Positions 22,901-62,129 of a DNA stretch of 64,000 bases are shown one piece after another. Below the pieces are notes generated by a model, which saw only the letters and a list, made by a program, of their open reading frames with translations, was not told the origin of the DNA and made no database searches. Positions within the stretch are counted from its first letter, which is position 1. Each line of letters begins with the position of its first letter. A program made the position numbers and the translations under genes. The stretch lies in NCBI GenBank assembly GCA_964414755.1, contig CAYPXH010000002.1:38696-102695 (forward strand), in the 5' to 3' direction. The stretch is from an uncultured Rhodospirillaceae bacterium (GTDB lineage Bacteria > Pseudomonadota > Alphaproteobacteria > JAEUKQ01).

Positions 22901-23710
22901 ATGCACCAATTATCTACAGCAAACCAACCAGGTCCAGCACCTGTTAGGGTTCGGAACCTTGAAATAAAAATGGCCGGTAGCCGTGCTGAAATTGATGCAG
23001 CCCAAGCATTGCGTTACCAGGTATTCTACCAAGAAATGTCGGCAAAGCCAAGTGCCAACATGAAGCAACAGCAGCGTGATTTTGATCATTTTGATGCCTT
23101 TTGTGATCATTTGATTATCCTAGACCATGATCTGAAAACAAACCTCCCTCCTGTTATTGCTACCTATCGCTTCATGCGCCGCGAAGCAGCTAAAAAATGT
23201 GGTCAGTTTTATTCACAAGATGAATATAATATCGACTGTTTAATTGATCATGCCGGTGAAATTATGGAGTTAGGGCGGTCATGTGTTTCCCTTCCTTATC
23301 GTAATGGACTGGTGATGCAATTATTATGGAGGGGTGTCGTAGAGTATGTGCGTTTTTATGATGTGCAATTAATGTTTGGGTGTGCTAGCTTGCCTGGAAC
23401 AACAATCGATAATCTTGCGGTGTCTCTTTCTTATTTGCACCATTTTCATCAAGCACCTCCTGAGCTTAGGGCAAAAGCACTGGCTAAGCGTTATGTTAAT
23501 ATGAACCTTCTACCGAAAGATCAAATTGACGAAAAAAATGCAATGCTCACACTACCCCCGTTGATTAAAGGATACCTTAGATTAGGTGGATTTATTGGTG
23601 ATGGTGCCGTTATTGATGATCAGTTTAATACAACTGACGTTAATGTTGTTGTAAAAATGGCTTTGGTAACCGATAAGTATGTAAAACATTATTATGGTCG
23701 TACGGAATAA
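22901..23710 (+). CDS. olsB: Ornithine lipid N-acyltransferase OlsB (GNAT-like, hemolysin-like)
   Basis: 269 aa. N-terminal VRNLEIKMAGSRAEIDAAQALRYQVFYQEM matches the conserved OlsB signature. Followed by an overlapping PlsC-type acyltransferase (olsA), the classical olsBA arrangement. Confidence 0.7.
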   Translation: MHQLSTANQPGPAPVRVRNLEIKMAGSRAEIDAAQALRYQVFYQEMSAKPSANMKQQQRDFDHFDAFCDHLIILDHDLKTNLPPVIATYRFMRREAAKKCGQFYSQDEYNIDCLIDHAGEIMELGRSCVSLPYRNGLVMQLLWRGVVEYVRFYDVQLMFGCASLPGTTIDNLAVSLSYLHHFHQAPPELRAKALAKRYVNMNLLPKDQIDEKNAMLTLPPLIKGYLRLGGFIGDGAVIDDQFNTTDVNVVVKMALVTDKYVKHYYGRTE

Positions 23711-24632
23711 TTTGAATACAATGCAGAGCATGATAAAAGATTCCATGCAACTTTCGCAAAAAAAGCCATATCTCTTTTCATTTGGATCACGTGTTTTAGC
23801 AGCGTGGCGTTTATTTTTATATGCGCTAATTAATCTGGTTTTTATTAGCACACAACTGGTACTTCGTGCCATTAATGGCGATAAAATATCGGGATTCCCA
23901 ATTTTTTATCATCGCTTATGTTGTCGTGTTTTAGGATTAGATATTATCACCAAAGGGACGCAATCACCACACCGTCCAACCCTATATGTTGCAAACCATA
24001 CCAGCTATACCGATATTATTTCTTTTGCCACGCTGATGCCAATTTCATTTATTGGTAAACAAGAAATTGCGAATTGGCCAATTTTTGGGTTATTAGCAAA
24101 GCTTCAACGAACAGTCTTTATTGATCGTAAACGTCATAATACGGATGCACATCGTGATTCAATAACAGGTAGGTTGCAAGAAGGAGACAGCCTGATGTTA
24201 TTTCCTGAAGGAACAACCAATGATGGAAACCGGTTATTACCCTTCCGCAGCTCGTTATTTGCTGTGGCTGAAACACCATTAGTTCATGATCAACGTGTGA
24301 CATCTTCATATGTTTGGGTACAACCAGTTTCAATATCATACACCCATTTGAACGGGTTGCCATTGGGGTATAGCTGGCGTCATCTTGTTGCTTGGTATGG
24401 TGATATTGGTTTTGCCGAACATATGTGGCAATTGCTTAGATTAGGTAGAATTACTATTCGAATAGAATTTCATGAGCCGGTAAACATAACACAATTTAAG
24501 TCCCGTAAGGAGATGAGTGATTACTGTTTTAAAAAAGTTGAAAAGGGCTTTTATGATGCCATAACCGGCCGGCCCTGGACTGGTCCAGAACAGCTATTAT
24601 CTAAAGATCAGCGGAAAACAGATCAATCATGA
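23694..24632 (+). CDS. olsA: Lyso-ornithine lipid O-acyltransferase OlsA (PlsC family)
   Basis: 312 aa with N-terminal TM. HX4D acyltransferase motif NHTSYTD and FPEGT motif. Overlaps olsB. Confidence 0.65.
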   Translation: MVVRNNLNTMQSMIKDSMQLSQKKPYLFSFGSRVLAAWRLFLYALINLVFISTQLVLRAINGDKISGFPIFYHRLCCRVLGLDIITKGTQSPHRPTLYVANHTSYTDIISFATLMPISFIGKQEIANWPIFGLLAKLQRTVFIDRKRHNTDAHRDSITGRLQEGDSLMLFPEGTTNDGNRLLPFRSSLFAVAETPLVHDQRVTSSYVWVQPVSISYTHLNGLPLGYSWRHLVAWYGDIGFAEHMWQLLRLGRITIRIEFHEPVNITQFKSRKEMSDYCFKKVEKGFYDAITGRPWTGPEQLLSKDQRKTDQS

Positions 24633-56852: not shown

Positions 56853-56937
56853 TGGTGCCCCTTGCCGGACTCGAACCAGCACGTCTCTCAACACCTGATT
56901 TTGAGTCAGGCGCGTCTACCAATTCCGCCAAAGGGGC
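56853..56937 (-). tRNA. tRNA-Leu (anticodon CAA)
   Basis: Minus-strand GCCCCTTTGGCGGAATTGGTAGACGCGCCTGACTCAAAATCAGGTGTTGAGAGACGTGCTGGTTCGAGTCCGGCAAGGGGCACCA. Long variable arm. Anticodon loop CTCAAAA. Encoded CCA. Confidence 0.9.
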
Positions 56938-57012
56938 TTATGGGTACCAGTTGTTTACCCTTAAACATAAAATCCGTCAACAAAAATACTTTAAGTAAAG
57001 CTATTAGTAATT

Positions 57013-57328
57013 GGGGTCGACACAGAATTCGGAAAAAATAGTACGCTAAGATTAATTATCAGCTTATTATTCCTTCTCTTAGCGTGCTTTATTTTCGTTT
57101 CCTGAGGCGATTCCAAAAAGCCAAAATAATCTTGGTTAACAATACCACGAACCATCTGCATTCAATACCCCGTGCTAATCCACAGATTGGAATCGATAAA
57201 ATAGGGGTCGTTTGACGAAAGGGAAATAAAGCACCTTAAGACGATGGGAAGGGGCGCAAAGGCCTAAACTTCCAACCTATTGCTAAAACCTTAGCGTACT
57301 ATTTTTTCCGAATTCTGCGTCGATTCCT
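57013..57328. mobile_element. Tn3-family-derived miniature inverted-repeat element (TIME-like), copy A, 316 bp
   Basis: 38-bp terminal inverted repeats. Left IR 57013-57050 GGGGTCGACACAGAATTCGGAAAAAATAGTACGCTAAG. Right IR 57291-57328 reads (reverse complement) GGAATCGACGCAGAATTCGGAAAAAATAGTACGCTAAG. Outer GGGG and inner TAAG match the Tn3-family IR signature. No ORF inside. Confidence 0.6.
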
Positions 57329-57931
57329 ATATGAATCTTTTGGATCAGAATTTTCATTTCATCTAGGACCGATAATTGAGTTTTTTTACCACCTCAGGCA
57401 AGCTACTATCTTCCCATTTCGTCATTTTTCTTCTGAGCGCTATTTCTTTCTTAAAAGGGGTTAGATTATATTTTGACTCTGGTTATTGGAATAACACTAT
57501 TCCTCAAAATACTTAAAACGAAGTTAAATAATTATTATTTTACTACATATTCCATATTACATAATAAAACGCGGGTTTCAATCTGACTTAGATTTTTTTT
57601 ATGCCCATCAATAGCGGAGAAGTTTGGCTTAGCACTGAAATCATCGAACTCAAAAAAATATAATTCGATTGTCCTTGGTAGGACTTTAAAGCAACCCAAG
57701 CATTGAAGTTCGTATTTTTGTGGAGTCTTAGAGCATATTTGGCCATAGGCAGTAATGTTAATATGGTGAAACATTCAAGATTGAGACTGGAAAATTAAAC
57801 AACATGTTGTATCCCTTAAAATTGCAGTACGTAACTGCACTTGAAAACAAGCAGATCAGAGAAAAGATCAAGGTTCTTTGTAAGCATCGTTCGATGCTAT
57901 AAACTGGGCTATTATTACAATCATTATAGCT

Positions 57932-58885
57932 TTGTATAGTGGTGGTATAGGGTTAATAATTACCGATAAACCTTTATTTCTTGTATTTGGAACGATCTCG
58001 CTCAGTTTATCAATGCTTCTTTCTTGGTATTTAAGTCATGATTGCGCTCATCTTTTAGTTTTCAAAGCCAAAAAATACAACGATTTTCTTGGAGAATTAC
58101 TGTCGTGGATTAACGGTCTCGCATATTTCAGATTTCACGAATATCGCAAAGATCATTTAAGGCATCATTTAGAACAAGTTGATCTTGCTGGAGTAAATGT
58201 TTCTAAAGTTTTGTCTAAGCTACCATACCCATGTGGCAAAATCACAATATTTCTAGAGCAATGTTATATCCCAATAATTTTTTTCATAATAAAAATTCAC
58301 AACATCATTGGTGTTATTCAGAGCAAAAATATAAGTTACATTATTCGAGTGATATTGGTAGGGTTAGTTTCTCTGTTATTTCTTTTTTGGTTAGCAATAA
58401 CTCATTGGTGGTCACCATTTCTATATTTTTTTGCTGTAATTATACGAATTCATTCTGTTAGGTTCGTAGACGCTTTCCAACATAGTTATGTGCAAATTGA
58501 TCCCTCCAATAGAAATAAACCTCAAGACAAATTGTACGAACAGAAAAATACTTTTTCATACCCTGTTGCGCGTCAGTTTAAATTCTTAAATCTTATTATA
58601 TTAAATTTTGGATTTCACAATGCCCATCATGCTGTACCCGGCTGTCCTTGGTATAATTTACCTAAAATCAATGAGATTATTCTCAACTATAAAATAACTG
58701 AGAAGGGTTCTTTAAAAATTAATGGAGAACCTCATTATGTAAGGTTCTCAGAATTAATTTATTGTTATCATAAGAAGCTAAAAGAGAGGCTTACTTCTAC
58801 AAACGAAGGAAGACCTTATAATGATGAACTTAGATTTTCAATGAAAGACTTTACGGGTGCTTTCACAGATAATCTTCTAGGATAG
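57932..58885 (+). CDS. Membrane fatty-acid desaturase/hydroxylase superfamily protein (di-iron, three His boxes)
   Basis: 317 aa, ~4 TM. His boxes HDCAH, HEYRKDHLRHH, HNAHH. Low-GC cargo gene of the composite element. Confidence 0.7.
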   Translation: MYSGGIGLIITDKPLFLVFGTISLSLSMLLSWYLSHDCAHLLVFKAKKYNDFLGELLSWINGLAYFRFHEYRKDHLRHHLEQVDLAGVNVSKVLSKLPYPCGKITIFLEQCYIPIIFFIIKIHNIIGVIQSKNISYIIRVILVGLVSLLFLFWLAITHWWSPFLYFFAVIIRIHSVRFVDAFQHSYVQIDPSNRNKPQDKLYEQKNTFSYPVARQFKFLNLIILNFGFHNAHHAVPGCPWYNLPKINEIILNYKITEKGSLKINGEPHYVRFSELIYCYHKKLKERLTSTNEGRPYNDELRFSMKDFTGAFTDNLLG

Positions 58886-58916
58886 GACAATAACAGTAAT
58901 TCAAAGGCTTTACATT

Positions 58917-59894
58917 ATGCTAAATAAAAAAATTAAAGGTGACACAGTCCCAGTTATCGATATTTCCTCACTTTTTAGTAATAAAAAGAGTGAAACTGAT
59001 AACTTAGCAAGGTCTATTGCGGCGGCCTGTAATTCAATTGGATTTTTCTATATTATTAATCATGGAGTTTCTCATACTATCTTTGATAACGTGTTTTCAG
59101 AATGCAGGGCGCTTTTTAATATGTCTGCTCAAGAAAAGGAATTAATAAATATCCACAAATCAAAGCACATGCGGGGATATTTTAGTTTTGGTGCAGATAA
59201 ATCTGATGGTATTCATGGGGATATTAAAGAGGGTTTTGATATGGCCAGTGACATTCCTTTAGATGATCCATATGTGAAAGCAGGACTAGCATTTTATGGG
59301 CCAAATGTTTGGCCGGCAAATTTGCCAAATTTCAAAAGAGTTACAACAGAGTATTATACAAGTATGTTACAAGTAGGTCGATTACTTTTAAGATCTTTTG
59401 CTCGGGGATTAGGAGTAGAAGATAATTTCTTTGACGACAAATTCCGTAAACCAATGGCCCAAATGAGACTACTACGCTATCCCCAAACCCCTAATCCAAA
59501 TAGTAAACAAATTGGTGCAGGAGAACACACAGATTTCGGTTGGATAACTATGATTGCTCAAGATGAGATAGGTGGCCTCGAAGTATTAAATAAACAGGGA
59601 GAGTGGATTGACATTCCTCCCGTTCCATCATCTTTAGTAGTCAATATCGGTGATCTTATGGCACGGTGGACAAATGATCAATACACTGCTACGTTTCATC
59701 GTGTCATCAACAAAAGCAGTCGGGATCGTTATTCTATCGCTTTTTTCATGGATCCTGATTATCATGCAAACGTTGAGTGTCTACCTAGTTGCAAATCGAA
59801 AAATCGTCCTGCTAAGTATGATCCAATTATTGCTGGAGACTATATGAATAAGAGATTCTATGAGACAACTACCTTCCGGGATTATCAGAAATAA
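58917..59894 (+). CDS. 2-oxoglutarate/Fe(II)-dependent oxygenase (IPNS/ACC-oxidase-like: DIOX_N + 2OG-FeII_Oxy)
   Basis: 325 aa. Facial triad H-x-D...H (HTDFG ... FHRV) and R-x-S (RYSIAF). Confidence 0.7.
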   Translation: MLNKKIKGDTVPVIDISSLFSNKKSETDNLARSIAAACNSIGFFYIINHGVSHTIFDNVFSECRALFNMSAQEKELINIHKSKHMRGYFSFGADKSDGIHGDIKEGFDMASDIPLDDPYVKAGLAFYGPNVWPANLPNFKRVTTEYYTSMLQVGRLLLRSFARGLGVEDNFFDDKFRKPMAQMRLLRYPQTPNPNSKQIGAGEHTDFGWITMIAQDEIGGLEVLNKQGEWIDIPPVPSSLVVNIGDLMARWTNDQYTATFHRVINKSSRDRYSIAFFMDPDYHANVECLPSCKSKNRPAKYDPIIAGDYMNKRFYETTTFRDYQK

Positions 59895-59967
59895 AACACC
59901 AATTAAAATTCTTGTTAAATCAATGTATTAATAAATCAACAGGCTAATCTTAGAGGATGCTTCTATT

Positions 59968-60417
59968 ATGCCAGAAAAAAGTAGTTTCTTGTATTATCTT
60001 TCAGCAGTTATTGCAATTATTGGTACCGTTGGGTACCACTTTTTCGTCAAAAAGATACCTTCTGGCATTCATCCTCTTGTTTCGGTTGTTGGTATTTATG
60101 TCGCAGTATTAGTCATTTGTATTCCGATTTTATTGTTAATCCCTATCCAGGGAGGACTTGCCATGCATATTAAACAATTGAATTGGGTTCAGGTGGCAGT
60201 TGCGCTAGCCATCATCTTGATGGAGCTTGGCTTTTTATTAATGTATCGGTATGGGTGGGATTTAAGTGTAGGGAATTTGGTGACCGGAGTTGCTATCAAT
60301 ATTATGTTAATGGCTATTGGGTTGCTTATTCTTCGAGAACAGTTAAGTTTTATTAATATAGTTGGTATTATCTTATCGATTGCAGGCGTAGCGATGATCA
60401 GTTACCGAAGCTCATAA
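59968..60417 (+). CDS. Small 4-TM DMT-superfamily (EamA-like half-transporter) membrane protein
   Basis: 149 aa, four hydrophobic helices. Last cargo gene before TIME copy B. Confidence 0.45.
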   Translation: MPEKSSFLYYLSAVIAIIGTVGYHFFVKKIPSGIHPLVSVVGIYVAVLVICIPILLLIPIQGGLAMHIKQLNWVQVAVALAIILMELGFLLMYRYGWDLSVGNLVTGVAINIMLMAIGLLILREQLSFINIVGIILSIAGVAMISYRSS

Positions 60418-60431
60418 AATAAACTTAGGAT

Positions 60432-60667
60432 GGGGTCGACGCAGAATTAGAAAAAAATAGTACGCTAAGGTTTTGCAATAGGTTTGAAGTTTAGGCCTTT
60501 GCCCCTCCTTCCCATCGTCTTAAGGTGCTTTATTTTCCCTTTCGTCAAAGGACACCTTAGAAGGGTTTTCTAACTCTTATAAAATTCCCAATATACTTCG
60601 CCGGGTCGCAGCAGCTCTAAGCACAAAACATTAGCCTAGTATTTTTTCCTAATTCTGCGTCGACCCC
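60432..60667. mobile_element. Tn3-family-derived miniature inverted-repeat element (TIME-like), copy B, 236 bp, inverted relative to copy A
   Basis: Left IR 60432-60469 GGGGTCGACGCAGAATTAGAAAAAAATAGTACGCTAAG. Right IR ends at 60667 (...GCGTCGACCCC). Internal 60470-60548 is the reverse complement of copy A's 57204-57290. Sits between the convergent DMT and hppD genes. Confidence 0.6.
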
Positions 60668-60670
60668 TAA

Positions 60671-61750
60671 TTAAGCTTTTAAAACCCCACGACGAATCTG
60701 GTCTTGTTCCATGGATTCAAACAATGCCCGGAAATTTCCTTCACCAAACCCCTCATCGCCCTTCCGCTGGATAATCTCAAAGAAAATAGGGCCAATAACA
60801 GTTTCCGTAAAAATTTGTAAAAGCAATCCACCAGCCGGTGATCCATCAATCAGCAAAGCATTTTTCTGCAAGCGGGCAACATCTTCACCGTGATTTGGTA
60901 ATCTTTTTTGTAACATTTCATAATATGTTGCGGGAGGAGCAGCCAAAAACTTAATTTTGCGCTGACGCAGGCTTTCAACAGTTTTATAGATATTGTCGGT
61001 GGCAAGGGCGATGTGTTGGATTCCTTCGCCTTTATAGAGTTTTAAATATTCCTCAATCTGACTTTTATCATCGGCACTTTCATTGATGGGAATGCGAATT
61101 TTACCACATGGACTGGTCATTGCTTTGGATTTAAGGCCAGTTAACTTCCCTTCAATATCAAAATAGCGAATTTCTCGGAAATTGAACAGTCGTTGATAAA
61201 AATCAGCCCATTTAGCCATATTTCCACGGTATACATTATGGGTTAAGTGGTCAATATAAGCTAATCCCATATCTGGTATGTTAGAAGGAGTTGTTTTGGT
61301 AAAAGACGATTCATAAACATTACCTTTTTTACCATAGCGATCTACAAGGTAAAGATGACTACCGCCAATGCCTTCGATGGCGGGAACATTATCTAAAAGC
61401 GTGGTGCCAGTGGCTATGGGTTTGGCGCCCAATTTTATGCTACGCTGATATGCTTTGTTGGCGTCTTTAACGCGAAATCCGATTGAGGCGCAGCATGGAC
61501 CATGCATGTTAGCAAATTTTTTTGCATGGCTTGATGGATCCTGATTTAAAATAAAATAAATATCGCCCTGTTTATACAATATTATTTTTTTGGTTTTGTG
61601 CAAACCAACACGTGAAAAACCCATCTGCTCGAAAAGGGGCTCTAGTAGTTTACTATCATTTGGTTCTGCGTATTCAACGAATTCAAAACCATCTGTTCCA
61701 GCCGGATTAATAGGGTCAAGATCATAACCGGTGGTTGGTGTTTGGTGCAT
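60671..61750 (-). CDS. hppD: 4-hydroxyphenylpyruvate dioxygenase
   Basis: 360 aa from ATG 61750 (MHQTPTTGYDLDPINPAGTDGFEFVEYA), N-terminal to the upstream-extended ORF. VOC-fold tandem domains. C-terminal FGEGNFRALFESME motif. Confidence 0.85.
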   Translation of the reverse strand: MHQTPTTGYDLDPINPAGTDGFEFVEYAEPNDSKLLEPLFEQMGFSRVGLHKTKKIILYKQGDIYFILNQDPSSHAKKFANMHGPCCASIGFRVKDANKAYQRSIKLGAKPIATGTTLLDNVPAIEGIGGSHLYLVDRYGKKGNVYESSFTKTTPSNIPDMGLAYIDHLTHNVYRGNMAKWADFYQRLFNFREIRYFDIEGKLTGLKSKAMTSPCGKIRIPINESADDKSQIEEYLKLYKGEGIQHIALATDNIYKTVESLRQRKIKFLAAPPATYYEMLQKRLPNHGEDVARLQKNALLIDGSPAGGLLLQIFTETVIGPIFFEIIQRKGDEGFGEGNFRALFESMEQDQIRRGVLKA

Positions 61751-62129
61751 GGTATCCTCAAATAATTTTTCTAGATGCTGATAAACAGGGTTAATTTTAC
61801 GAGAAACTGGATATAGATGTAAAAAGCACAGAAATTCTATAATGGCCGCAGGGTAAAGACAACTATAAAACACAAAATTACTTTATATTATTTTATAAAA
61901 ACTTTATTTTTTGTGACATTTTAGCATCAAGTCGCTAAAAAGCTTGGAAAAACTAATAAAGTCCTTTGACAAATGACTAAGGAATTCGTATATCGGAATC
62001 GCAACTTGCTTTTTTAGGCTATAGTTATAGTAAAGCGAGTTTTTAAGAGTTTGTTAATAAGTGGTTGGTTATAATTCTCGAGTGGGTAAATCAATTATAG
62101 TAGGCTTTAACTAAGAAAGAGGAATAAAC

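What the first reader, a model, noticed from the sequence alone, without database searches (positions are those of the whole stretch)
57932..60417. Mobile cargo may encode a lipid-modification module in a genome that also carries olsBA
The window contains olsB-olsA (ornithine lipid synthesis, 22901-24632). Known ornithine-lipid tailoring enzymes are a His-box di-iron hydroxylase (OlsE-type) and a 2OG/Fe(II) hydroxylase (OlsC/LpxO-type). The TIME cargo is exactly one His-box membrane di-iron enzyme plus one 2OG-Fe(II) oxygenase. The 2OG enzyme is of the IPNS/ACC-oxidase fold rather than LpxO-like, and a small DMT exporter completes the set. This could be a horizontally acquired module that desaturates or hydroxylates membrane lipids (ornithine lipids or acyl chains), or one that makes and exports a small oxidised metabolite. 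Either way it is a functionally coherent three-gene unit of unknown product.
Basis: inference. Interest (0 to 1): 0.5.

Follow-up and report, generated by a model that had tools for sequence, protein, structure and literature searches.

The report
Transposon-borne oxygenase operon, partly decayed
A small non-autonomous transposon has dropped three genes (a membrane iron enzyme, a soluble iron enzyme and a small transporter) into this uncultured bacterium; they belong to a conserved, uncharacterised operon that more likely oxidises and exports a small amine than modifies membrane lipids, and the membrane enzyme gene is broken in this copy.

Summary
The three ORFs are at the stated coordinates and are the cargo of a confirmed mobile element. 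This is a 3,655-bp composite (57013-60667) bounded by two Tn3-derived miniature elements (a TIME-COMP). It has a 5-bp target duplication (TAATT), and ~95%-identical relatives carry an empty site.

The three genes form a real unit. Desaturase-fold enzyme, PaIPNS-like 2OG oxygenase and small transporter are syntenic in about 17 distinct loci, in Pseudomonas, Paraburkholderia, Paraherbaspirillum, Achromobacter and metagenomes. These loci usually add a dedicated LysR regulator, and about half add a SpeD-like pyruvoyl decarboxylase.

The ornithine-lipid reading is not supported. The enzymes belong to different Pfam families from OlsE and OlsC/LpxO. The olsBA-like genes lie 33 kb away. None of about 170 related loci carries olsB/olsA or other lipid genes.

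In some loci the transporter slot holds a PACE-family cation efflux protein instead. With the decarboxylase, this favours oxidation and export of a small cationic amine. The product is unknown.

Its true start is 57804, and a 1-bp deletion creates a stop after 32 codons. Sister contigs carry an intact 360-aa allele or an independent nonsense allele. The cassette also lacks the regulator and the decarboxylase.

The parts
57008..57012 (.). Left copy of the 5-bp target-site duplication, TAATT
   Evidence: Read from the sequence. The empty site in L102, L104 and L107 has one copy of the pentamer (TAGTT).
57013..57327 (.). Left Tn3-derived miniature element (TIME), 315 bp, with 38-44-bp terminal inverted repeats
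   Evidence: Inverted repeat I3, 44 nt, 89% complementary. The IR pattern gave 3 matches against 0 expected by chance.
57328..57803 (.). 476-bp spacer inside the cargo. It holds only a 79-aa antisense ORF (57535-57774) with no family, and no remnant of the SpeD-like gene.
   Evidence: Pfam found no hit. tblastn and an HMM of the cluster decarboxylases found nothing. It has no similarity to other module loci.
57804..58885 (+). Gene for an FA_desaturase-fold membrane di-iron enzyme, disrupted. ATG at 57804, 1-bp deletion at 57899/57900, stop at 57900-57902. The rest of the gene is the ORF 57932-58885.
   Evidence: tblastn of P0002 splits across two frames. The DNA alignment shows intact alleles in L007 and L008, and L011 carries the same 360-aa gene call; it shows the deletion in the window, L009 and L010, and TGG>TGA in L001 and L002. 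Pfam PF00487.
58917..59894 (+). PaIPNS-like Fe(II)/2OG oxygenase, 325 aa, intact
   Evidence: DIOX_N plus 2OG-FeII_Oxy. Best PDB matches are 9OVH (5e-63) and 6JYV (7e-54). The identical protein occurs on 14 contigs. Partners in the module loci are 51-70% identical.
59968..60417 (+). Half-size DMT (single EamA domain) transporter, 149 aa, intact
   Evidence: Pfam EamA at 26.8 bits against a 28.2 cutoff. Orthologues 50-55% identical sit in the module loci. No NCBIfam hit.
60432..60667 (.). Right TIME, 236 bp. About 120 bp of it matches the left TIME in inverted orientation.
   Evidence: Inverted repeats I1, I2 and I5. blastn of the two TIMEs against the window.
60668..60672 (.). Right copy of the target-site duplication, TAATT. 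It overlaps the stop codon of the HPPD gene on the - strand.
   Evidence: Read from the sequence. Alignment with the empty-site loci resumes at 60668.
56853..56937 (-). tRNA-Leu(CAA), the left chromosomal flank of the insertion
   Evidence: ARAGORN and Rfam.
60671..61873 (-). 4-hydroxyphenylpyruvate dioxygenase gene, the right chromosomal flank. It is not part of the cargo.
   Evidence: TIGR01263 at 411.7 bits, above the cutoff. It is present next to tRNA-Leu in the empty-site loci.
22901..24632 (+). olsB-like and olsA-like genes in the core genome, 33 kb from the cargo and unlinked to it
   Evidence: NCBIfam OlsB at 291 bits (cutoff 320) and OlsA at 260 bits (cutoff 300).

Best explanation
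The region is the cargo of a non-autonomous composite transposon (TIME-COMP). A Tn3-family transposase supplied in trans inserted it between tRNA-Leu and the HPPD gene of an uncultured bacterium whose close relatives are labelled Alphaproteobacteria.

The cargo is the three-gene core of a conserved accessory operon. In its fuller form the operon reads: a dedicated LysR regulator, a SpeD-like pyruvoyl decarboxylase, a desaturase-fold membrane di-iron oxygenase, a PaIPNS-like Fe(II)/2OG oxygenase, and a small transporter.

Inferred mechanism:
- An amino-acid-type precursor is decarboxylated to an amine. The cluster's own decarboxylase does this, or a housekeeping enzyme where that gene is absent.
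- The two iron enzymes oxidise the amine by hydroxylation and/or desaturation.
- The small transporter moves the cationic product out of the cell.

On this reading the substrate is a small metabolite, not a membrane lipid.

In this window the pathway is incomplete and probably inactive. The cassette has no regulator and no decarboxylase, and a 1-bp deletion truncates the di-iron gene.

Shown: the transposon, its insertion, the synteny, the family assignments and the frameshift. Inferred: the substrate class and the direction of transport.
For: Transposon:
- Tn3-type inverted repeats, a 5-bp TSD and empty sites.
- Cargo GC is 0.344 against 0.405 for the window.
- No Tn3 transposase among the seven longest unexamined window ORFs (all >=500 aa) that were scanned.

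Conserved unit:
- Des plus 2OG plus a small transporter are adjacent in every locus whose Des is at least 38% identical, where the contig allows it to be seen. This covers P. japonica, P. haemolytica, P. fluorescens, P. lactis, Paraherbaspirillum, Paraburkholderia, Achromobacter and several metagenome lineages.
- The partner 2OG forms its own subclade at 51-70% identity. Beyond it, identity drops to 48% or less among more than 3000 generic IPNS-family proteins.
- The adjacent LysR is orthologous across loci, at 47-77% identity.

Small cationic amine rather than lipid:
- A SpeD-like pyruvoyl proenzyme with the ESHIS motif scores 70-73 bits against TIGR03330 (cutoff 75.65). It is present in 9 distinct loci.
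- In L004 and L121 the transporter slot holds a BTP/PACE-family protein. PACE proteins are efflux pumps for cationic compounds, and short-chain diamines are reported as native AceI substrates (PMC9045395, citing Hassan 2019).
- The Achromobacter locus adds a SugE-like SMR. Amine-dehydrogenase (mau-type) genes start 33 bp downstream.
- The Pseudomonas loci add a TauD-like oxygenase and an amidohydrolase.
- More distant Des clades sit in solute-transport operons. In cyanobacteria the order is NMT1-type binding protein, Des, full-length EamA, plus an ABC ATPase and permease.
- No acyltransferase, ACP or OlsB/OlsA gene was seen in the loci inspected, and a direct search found no OlsB/OlsA homologue in any related locus.
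- There is a precedent for this fold acting on a free amino acid: NCBIfam names GntB as an arginine gamma-hydroxylase.

Decay:
- The frameshift, plus an independent nonsense allele in sister contigs.
Against: - No member of either enzyme clade has a known substrate. PaIPNS, the closest natural solved structure, is itself an orphan.
- The desaturase-fold protein is equally distant from lipid desaturases (DesA), carotenoid enzymes (CrtW, CrtR) and GntB, so sequence does not discriminate between them.
- Uptake and catabolism remain plausible. LysR control, neighbouring catabolic-type genes and binding-protein-dependent importers in the cyanobacterial clade all point that way.
- About half of the module loci lack the decarboxylase.
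- No electron-donor gene for the di-iron enzyme is in the cluster.
- No guanidine riboswitch or other informative RNA was found.
- A restart at TTG 57932 could in principle yield a truncated protein.
Confidence: 0.55

Rival explanations
1. Uptake and oxidative breakdown, or nutrient scavenging, of an environmental small polar compound such as an amine, a sulfonate or a modified amino acid. The transporter imports the compound, the two oxygenases activate or cleave it, and LysR senses it.
For: - A divergent, dedicated LysR regulator is typical of catabolic operons.
- A TauD-like oxygenase and an amidohydrolase lie directly downstream in the Pseudomonas loci.
- Amine-dehydrogenase genes lie 33 bp downstream in Achromobacter.
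- The cyanobacterial Des clade is embedded in binding-protein-dependent ABC importer operons.
- The Halieaceae clade has a TauE/SafE permease and a class-V aminotransferase nearby.
Against: - In two lineages the transporter slot is filled by a PACE-family protein. That family is known only as efflux pumps (PMC9045395).
- The SugE-like SMR in Achromobacter is also an efflux type.
- SpeD-like pyruvoyl decarboxylases are known from biosynthesis (PMC10407285).
- The core has too few enzymes to reach central metabolism.
Confidence: 0.25
2. One reading: a horizontally acquired module that desaturates or hydroxylates membrane lipids, either ornithine lipids made by OlsBA or phospholipid acyl chains. 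The half-size DMT would act as a lipid-linked flippase.
For: - The di-iron protein belongs to Pfam FA_desaturase, and its best (very weak) NCBIfam hit is the lipid desaturase DesA.
- The genome has olsB- and olsA-like genes.
- From my own knowledge, small DMT-type proteins (ArnE/ArnF) flip lipid-linked sugars.
Against: - There is no hit to the families I recall for OlsE (FA_hydroxylase) or OlsC/LpxO (Asp/Asn beta-hydroxylase).
- No lipid-synthesis gene or OlsB/OlsA homologue lies near any of about 170 related loci.
- The conserved partners are a soluble IPNS-type oxygenase, a soluble pyruvoyl decarboxylase, LysR and cation-type efflux proteins.
- The transporter gave no NCBIfam hit at all at E <= 0.01, so no ArnE/ArnF-type model matched if the library holds one.
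- The family has many invariant charged and polar residues outside the His boxes, and an invariant C-terminal FTGAFTDxLLG tail. This is weak evidence.
Confidence: 0.12
3. The cargo in this host is junk. It would be a hitch-hiking fragment of a foreign operon that is not expressed or useful here and is being lost.
For: - Two independent inactivating alleles of the first gene exist in one shallowly diverged population.
- The regulator and the decarboxylase are missing.
- Promoter-like sites are no more frequent than in shuffled sequence.
- Relatives without the insertion exist.
Against: - Intact 360-aa alleles persist in three contigs.
- The 2OG protein is identical on 14 contigs, and the transporter shows only synonymous changes. 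Diversity is too low for a real selection test.
- This rival concerns the state of the genes in this host, not the module's ancestral function, so it is compatible with the best explanation.
Confidence: 0.4

Closest known systems
[quoted passage not shown] 2014, PMC4133298; PMC13367494)
   Same: - Two short elements without a transposase, each with Tn3-type ~38-bp terminal inverted repeats.
- The whole composite is flanked by a 5-bp target duplication.
- It mobilises passenger genes.
   Different: - The cargo is a metabolic three-gene unit rather than a resistance gene.
- The host is an uncultured, low-GC, Alphaproteobacteria-labelled lineage and the site is chromosomal.
- The two TIMEs differ in length (315 and 236 bp) and share only about 120 bp of internal sequence.
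- No cognate Tn3 transposase was found among the window ORFs scanned.
PaIPNS (PA4191, PDB 6JYV) and the reconstructed ancestor Anc357 (PDB 9OVH), from the EFE-related IPNS-family 2OG oxygenases (PMC12329707)
   Same: - Full-length alignment, E 7e-54 and 5e-63.
- DIOX_N plus 2OG-FeII_Oxy architecture.
- The HxD...H iron ligands and the RxS 2OG site are aligned.
   Different: - PaIPNS has no known substrate. It binds 2OG but does not hydroxylate arginine or make ethylene.
- I did not examine whether PA4191 has a desaturase-fold partner in its own locus.
- The window protein belongs to a separate subclade that always sits next to the desaturase-fold gene.
GntB, the transmembrane L-arginine gamma-hydroxylase of guanitoxin biosynthesis (NCBIfam NF041365)
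   Same: - FA_desaturase-fold membrane di-iron enzyme with three His boxes.
- It works in a small-molecule pathway.
- It is the precedent for this fold acting on a free, charged amino acid.
   Different: - The window family scores only 22-32 bits against a 380-bit cutoff, so it is not a member.
- The partner genes are different.
- The substrate is unknown.
OlsE and OlsC/LpxO ornithine-lipid hydroxylases
   Same: One membrane di-iron enzyme and one 2OG/Fe(II)-type enzyme, in a genome that has olsBA-like genes.
   Different: - Both belong to different Pfam families: FA_hydroxylase and Asp/Asn beta-hydroxylase (family assignments from my own knowledge).
- There is no genomic linkage to olsBA, either here or in any related locus.
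Neofunctionalised SpeD/AdoMetDC homologues: pyruvoyl ornithine and arginine decarboxylases (PMC10407285)
   Same: The decarboxylase in the fuller operon form is a small SpeD-like pyruvoyl proenzyme that scores just under the AdoMetDC equivalog cutoff.
   Different: - It is clustered with oxygenases and efflux proteins, not with polyamine synthases.
- Its substrate is untested.
- The gene is absent from this window.

Membership tests
TIME-COMP (Tn3-derived miniature-element composite transposon) | Two short elements, each with Tn3-family-type terminal inverted repeats of about 38 bp (GGGG...TAAG), and no transposase | tested here: met
   Elements at 57013-57327 and 60432-60667. No Tn3 transposase among the seven long window ORFs scanned.
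TIME-COMP (Tn3-derived miniature-element composite transposon) | 5-bp target-site duplication flanking the whole composite, and an empty site in relatives | tested here: met
   TAATT at 57008-57012 and 60668-60672. L102, L104 and L107 lack the composite and have one pentamer.
TIME-COMP (Tn3-derived miniature-element composite transposon) | Mobilisation by a cognate Tn3-family transposase | not testable with these tools
   No transposase was found in the window, and the rest of the genome is not available.
FA_desaturase (PF00487) membrane di-iron enzymes | Match to the family model, and three His boxes (HxxxH, HxxHH, HxxHH) | tested here: met
   Pfam 98 bits against a 29.7 cutoff. H79/H83, H118/H121/H122 and H272/H275/H276 are invariant or nearly invariant in 35 sequences.
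FA_desaturase (PF00487) membrane di-iron enzymes | Intact full-length reading frame including the first transmembrane helix | tested here: not met
   A 1-bp deletion gives a stop after codon 32. The remaining ORF lacks residues 1-43, which include most of model helix 30-51.
OlsE-type ornithine-lipid hydroxylase | FA_hydroxylase-superfamily di-iron domain (family assignment from my own knowledge) | tested here: not met
   Only PF00487 was reported at E <= 0.01 for both the truncated and the intact protein.
OlsC/LpxO-type hydroxylase | Asp/Asn beta-hydroxylase-type 2OG domain (family assignment from my own knowledge) | tested here: not met
   Only DIOX_N and 2OG-FeII_Oxy were reported.
Ornithine-lipid tailoring module | Genomic or phyletic linkage to olsB/olsA | tested here: not met
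   The olsBA-like genes are 33 kb away. No OlsB/OlsA homologue in the flanks of about 170 related loci.
Beta-carotene ketolase CrtW | NCBIfam equivalog score of at least 350 bits | tested here: not met
   19.7-22.9 bits.
GntB arginine gamma-hydroxylase | NCBIfam equivalog score of at least 380 bits | tested here: not met
   22.5-23 bits for the window and L007 proteins, and 31.7 bits for the Pseudomonas orthologue.
IPNS/ACC-oxidase-type Fe(II)/2OG oxygenases | DIOX_N plus 2OG-FeII_Oxy domains, with the HxD...H triad and the RxS 2OG site | tested here: met
   Pfam. The aligned motifs GEHTDFG, FHRV and RDRYSIAFF match 9OVH and 6JYV.
Ethylene-forming enzyme (EFE) | Full-length similarity, including the L-arginine-binding residues | tested here: inconclusive
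   Natural EFEs align only over residues 86-223 or 86-289, at E about 5e-21. The arginine-site residues were not examined. The closer relative PaIPNS has no EFE activity.
DMT / EamA transporters | EamA domain above the Pfam gathering score | tested here: inconclusive
   26.8 bits against a 28.2 cutoff for a single domain. Orthologues in other loci are recorded as EamA, mostly weak.

The most novel reading that the evidence does not exclude
The conserved operon (LysR, a SpeD-like decarboxylase, a desaturase-fold di-iron enzyme, a PaIPNS-like 2OG oxygenase and a cation efflux protein) could be an undescribed, horizontally mobile pathway. It would make and secrete an oxidised (hydroxylated or unsaturated) small amine.

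If so, it would be a second clear case, after GntB, of a 'fatty acid desaturase' fold working on a free polar metabolite. It would also give the first physiological substrate for the orphan PaIPNS-like branch next to the ethylene-forming enzymes.
Probability: 0.35. Interest if true: 0.65.

Novelty: new variant of a known kind. Interest (0 to 1): 0.4.

Why it matters
If the inferred chemistry is right, thousands of genes annotated as 'fatty acid desaturase family protein' may not act on lipids. These genes sit in transporter operons in Pseudomonas, Burkholderiales, cyanobacteria and marine Gammaproteobacteria.

The orphan PaIPNS-like oxygenases, relatives of the ethylene-forming enzyme, would gain a testable pathway context.

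The locus also shows a Tn3-derived miniature-element composite moving a metabolic unit into the chromosome of an uncultured bacterium. The empty site is preserved, and loss-of-function alleles are already segregating.

For this particular window the practical message is more modest. The cassette is an incomplete, partly inactivated copy and has no demonstrable link to ornithine lipids.

Tried and rejected
- **SpeD-like remnant.** I looked for a remnant of the decarboxylase gene in the 476-bp spacer and across the whole window, using tblastn and a custom HMM. Nothing was found.
- **Guanidine/arginine idea.** The EFE-like oxygenase, the GntB-like enzyme, possible Arg decarboxylation and a SugE neighbour suggested it. 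No guanidine riboswitch or other informative RNA was found in nine module loci or in the window. PaIPNS does not hydroxylate arginine. I kept this only as a remote lead.
- **Predicted empty-site junction in metagenome contigs.** No exact match, because relatives differ at three bases. The empty site was instead found through the ApaG neighbour.
- **Plasmid collection searched with the intact desaturase protein.** No match.
- **Profile search of 5.8 billion proteins for named relatives.** It returned only generic 'fatty acid desaturase' names.
- **AlphaFold model of the closest intact homologue (pLDDT 89) searched against the PDB.** The only hits were non-significant matches to desaturase-like subunits of Ycf2-FtsHi complexes and to AlkB, so there is no substrate clue. 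The AFDB library was unavailable.
- **Literature searches for the gene combination.** Nothing was found. Two searches failed on syntax.
- **Legionella origin.** I suspected it at first from the GC content and the HPPD gene. I dropped it because 90%-identity cluster mates are labelled Alphaproteobacteria MAGs.
- **Phase variation at the frameshift.** Rejected, because the site is a TT dinucleotide and not a homopolymer tract.
Full report
**1. What is at the coordinates**

- 57932-58885 encodes a protein matching Pfam FA_desaturase (PF00487, E 7e-28).
- 58917-59894 encodes a protein with DIOX_N plus 2OG-FeII_Oxy domains (E 6e-30 and 7e-28).
- 59968-60417 encodes a 149-aa protein with a single EamA domain at 26.8 bits, just below the 28.2-bit gathering score.

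The right-hand neighbour on the minus strand, 60671-61873, is a 4-hydroxyphenylpyruvate dioxygenase gene (TIGR01263, 412 bits). On the left lie tRNA-Leu(CAA) at 56853-56937 and tRNA-Gly.

**2. The mobile frame is real**

- Two miniature elements bracket the genes, at 57013-57327 and 60432-60667. Each ends in Tn3-type inverted repeats of the form GGGGTCGAC...ACGCTAAG. The repeat occurs three times at up to 3 mismatches, against 0 expected by chance.
- The same pentamer, TAATT, directly abuts the outer ends at 57008-57012 and 60668-60672. The inner ends have no such repeat. This is the signature of the composite moving as one unit with a 5-bp duplication, as Tn3-family elements do.
- Contigs from relatives whose flanks are 94-96% identical (L102, L104 and L107) run straight from tRNA-Leu into the HPPD stop codon. 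They carry a single pentamer, TAGTT.
- The cargo has GC 0.344, against 0.405 for the window.
- None of the seven long window ORFs scanned (all >=500 aa) is a transposase; all are housekeeping genes.

In the terms of PMC4133298 and PMC13367494, the structure is therefore a TIME-COMP. Proteins in the same 90%-identity clusters as the window's MiaB, OlsB-like and ApaG proteins come from MAGs labelled Alphaproteobacteria.

**3. The desaturase-fold gene is broken in this window**

- Homologues are 354-361 aa long, not 317.
- The closest one, P0002 (66% identical), aligns to the window in two frames. Residues 1-32 match 57804-57899, and residues 43-359 match 57932-58882.
- Reading from the ATG at 57804 gives 32 codons and then TAA at 57900-57902.
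- Sister contigs that carry the identical 2OG protein were compared. L007 and L008 were aligned and are intact; L011 carries the same 360-aa gene call.
- The window, L009 and L010 lack one T (GCTATTAAAC becomes GCTA-TAAAC).
- L001 and L002 keep that T but carry TGG>TGA eight bases further on.
- These are two independent inactivating alleles from different samples, so a sequencing error is unlikely.
- A product restarting at TTG 57932 would lack residues 1-43. That includes most of the first long helix, residues 30-51 in the AlphaFold model of P0002 (pLDDT 89.3).
- Elsewhere the cargo differs between contigs only by one synonymous change in this gene and two in the transporter gene. Most variation lies in the miniature elements.

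**4. The three genes are a conserved unit**

Every locus whose desaturase-fold protein is at least 38% identical, on a long enough contig, also carries the 2OG oxygenase and a small transporter directly adjacent.
- Same gene order as the window: P. japonica (L014) and the closest metagenomic relatives (L098, L099).
- Permuted order: P. haemolytica, P. fluorescens and P. lactis (L015-L017, L116, L117, L119).
- With a SpeD-like gene in front: Paraherbaspirillum, Paraburkholderia, Achromobacter and several metagenome lineages (L003, L004, L093, L094, L096, L101, L113, L114, L121).

The partner oxygenases form their own subclade at 51-70% identity. Beyond it, identity falls to 48% or less among more than 3000 generic IPNS-family proteins.

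The neighbouring LysR regulator is itself orthologous across six lineages, at 47-77% identity.

The SpeD-like proteins carry the ESHIS self-cleavage motif. They score 70-73 bits on the AdoMetDC equivalog model, just under its 75.65-bit cutoff. The window contains no such gene and no LysR next to the cargo.

**5. What the unit probably does**

Sequence alone does not name a substrate.
- The di-iron protein scores 20-34 bits against the DesA, CrtW, CrtR and GntB models, whose cutoffs are 350-500.
- The oxygenase's best natural structural relative is PaIPNS (6JYV). PaIPNS binds 2OG but has no known substrate and no ethylene-forming or arginine-hydroxylating activity. The top hit, 9OVH, is a reconstructed ancestor that is equally inactive.

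Context is more informative.
- The conserved partners are a soluble pyruvoyl decarboxylase, a soluble oxygenase, a LysR regulator and a small transporter.
- The transporter slot is interchangeable. It holds a half-size EamA, a full-length EamA (L003, L101) or a BTP/PACE-family protein (L004, L121).
- PACE proteins are proton-driven efflux pumps for cationic compounds, and short-chain diamines are reported as the native substrates of AceI (PMC9045395, citing Hassan et al. 2019).
- In Achromobacter a SugE-like SMR gene precedes the operon, and mau-type amine-dehydrogenase genes follow it after 33 bp.
- In Pseudomonas a TauD-like oxygenase and an amidohydrolase follow.
- More distant clades of the same di-iron family also sit in solute-transport operons. 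In cyanobacteria the order is NMT1/THI5-type binding protein, Des, full-length EamA, with an ABC ATPase and permease. In Halieaceae the gene is paired with a TIM-barrel protein.
- No OlsB or OlsA homologue lies in the flanks of about 170 related loci.

I therefore infer that an amine-type small molecule is oxidised by the two iron enzymes and exported. Where the SpeD-like enzyme is present, it would make the amine. This is inference from context, with a confidence of about 0.55. Uptake and catabolism of such a compound is the main rival, at about 0.25. Lipid tailoring trails at about 0.12.

**6. The ornithine-lipid idea**

The olsB-like and olsA-like genes are present at 22901-24632 (E 8e-87 and 2e-77, slightly below the equivalog cutoffs). 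They lie 33 kb away in core genome, and they are also present in relatives.

From my own knowledge, OlsE belongs to the FA_hydroxylase family and OlsC/LpxO to the Asp/Asn beta-hydroxylase family. Neither family was reported for the cargo proteins. The resemblance between 'one di-iron enzyme plus one 2OG enzyme' and the ornithine-lipid hydroxylases is therefore superficial.

**7. State of the module in this host**

The copy lacks the regulator and the decarboxylase, and its first gene is truncated. Two loss-of-function alleles and an intact allele coexist in the population, and some relatives have no insertion at all. That looks like a recent acquisition that is not under strong selection, at least for the di-iron enzyme.

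The two inactivating mutations lie only 8 bp apart, which I cannot explain (note).

Promoter-like and terminator-like matches in the cassette are no more frequent than in shuffled sequence.

**8. Novelty and score**

The transposon type is known. What is new is metabolic cargo in a chromosomal site of an uncultured bacterium, with the empty site preserved in relatives. That makes it a new member of that kind.

The operon is built from known enzyme families. I did not find its combination described in the searchable literature, and no member has a known substrate.

I rate it a new variant of a known kind, with interest 0.4. The most novel reading still open is a new amine-oxidising pathway that uses a desaturase-fold enzyme on a polar metabolite. 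I give that a probability of about 0.35 and an interest of about 0.65 if true.

Noticed in passing
window 57899-57907; L001, L002, L007-L011: Two independent loss-of-function mutations of the desaturase-fold gene lie only 8 bp apart: a 1-bp deletion and a TGG>TGA change. They occur in different metagenome samples, alongside intact alleles. This could be a hotspot, selection for an N-terminally truncated form, or coincidence.
   Followed up: partly
L018-L067 and L122-L141 (cyanobacterial loci): A clade of the same di-iron family, 28-34% identical, is repeatedly arranged as NMT1/THI5-type binding protein, Des, full-length EamA. An ABC ATPase and permease of the nitrate/sulfonate/taurine type lie next to it. 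This looks like an uncharacterised solute-uptake operon that contains a 'fatty acid desaturase'.
   Followed up: partly
L071-L092 (Luminiphilus / Halieaceae loci): Another clade of the family is always followed, often with a 7-bp overlap, by a xylose-isomerase-like TIM-barrel protein. A class-V aminotransferase lies downstream, and a Na+/H+ antiporter-family gene and a TauE/SafE-type permease lie upstream.
   Followed up: partly
L093:5866-14828 (Achromobacter seleniivolatilans): Here the four-gene operon is preceded by a SugE-like SMR gene. After 33 bp it is followed by methylamine/aromatic-amine dehydrogenase-type genes (heavy and light chains, MauE), a multicopper oxidase and a cytochrome c, all on the same strand.
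   Followed up: no
L004:10651-12460; L096:11123-12892: A group II intron (Rfam D1-D4 and domain V/VI hits, with an RVT_1 ORF) lies directly downstream of the module in Paraburkholderia. A reverse-transcriptase gene lies downstream in another lineage. The module tends to sit in mobile contexts.
   Followed up: no
window 60671-61873 (- strand): The HPPD ORF is listed as 400 aa from a GTG start, but several sister contigs call it at 359 aa, so the N-terminal 41 residues are probably not translated. The right-hand target duplication overlaps its stop codon, so the insertion landed exactly at the 3' end of the gene without changing the protein.
   Followed up: partly
window 57535-57774 (- strand): A 79-aa antisense ORF in the cargo spacer is conserved in all sister contigs. 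It has no Pfam family and no homologue in any other module locus, so its origin is unknown.
   Followed up: partly
L119:2822-3870, L120: In one Pseudomonas-type module variant, about 1 kb between the transporter and the desaturase-fold gene matches none of my queries. In L094 the SpeD-like gene occupies that position.
   Followed up: no
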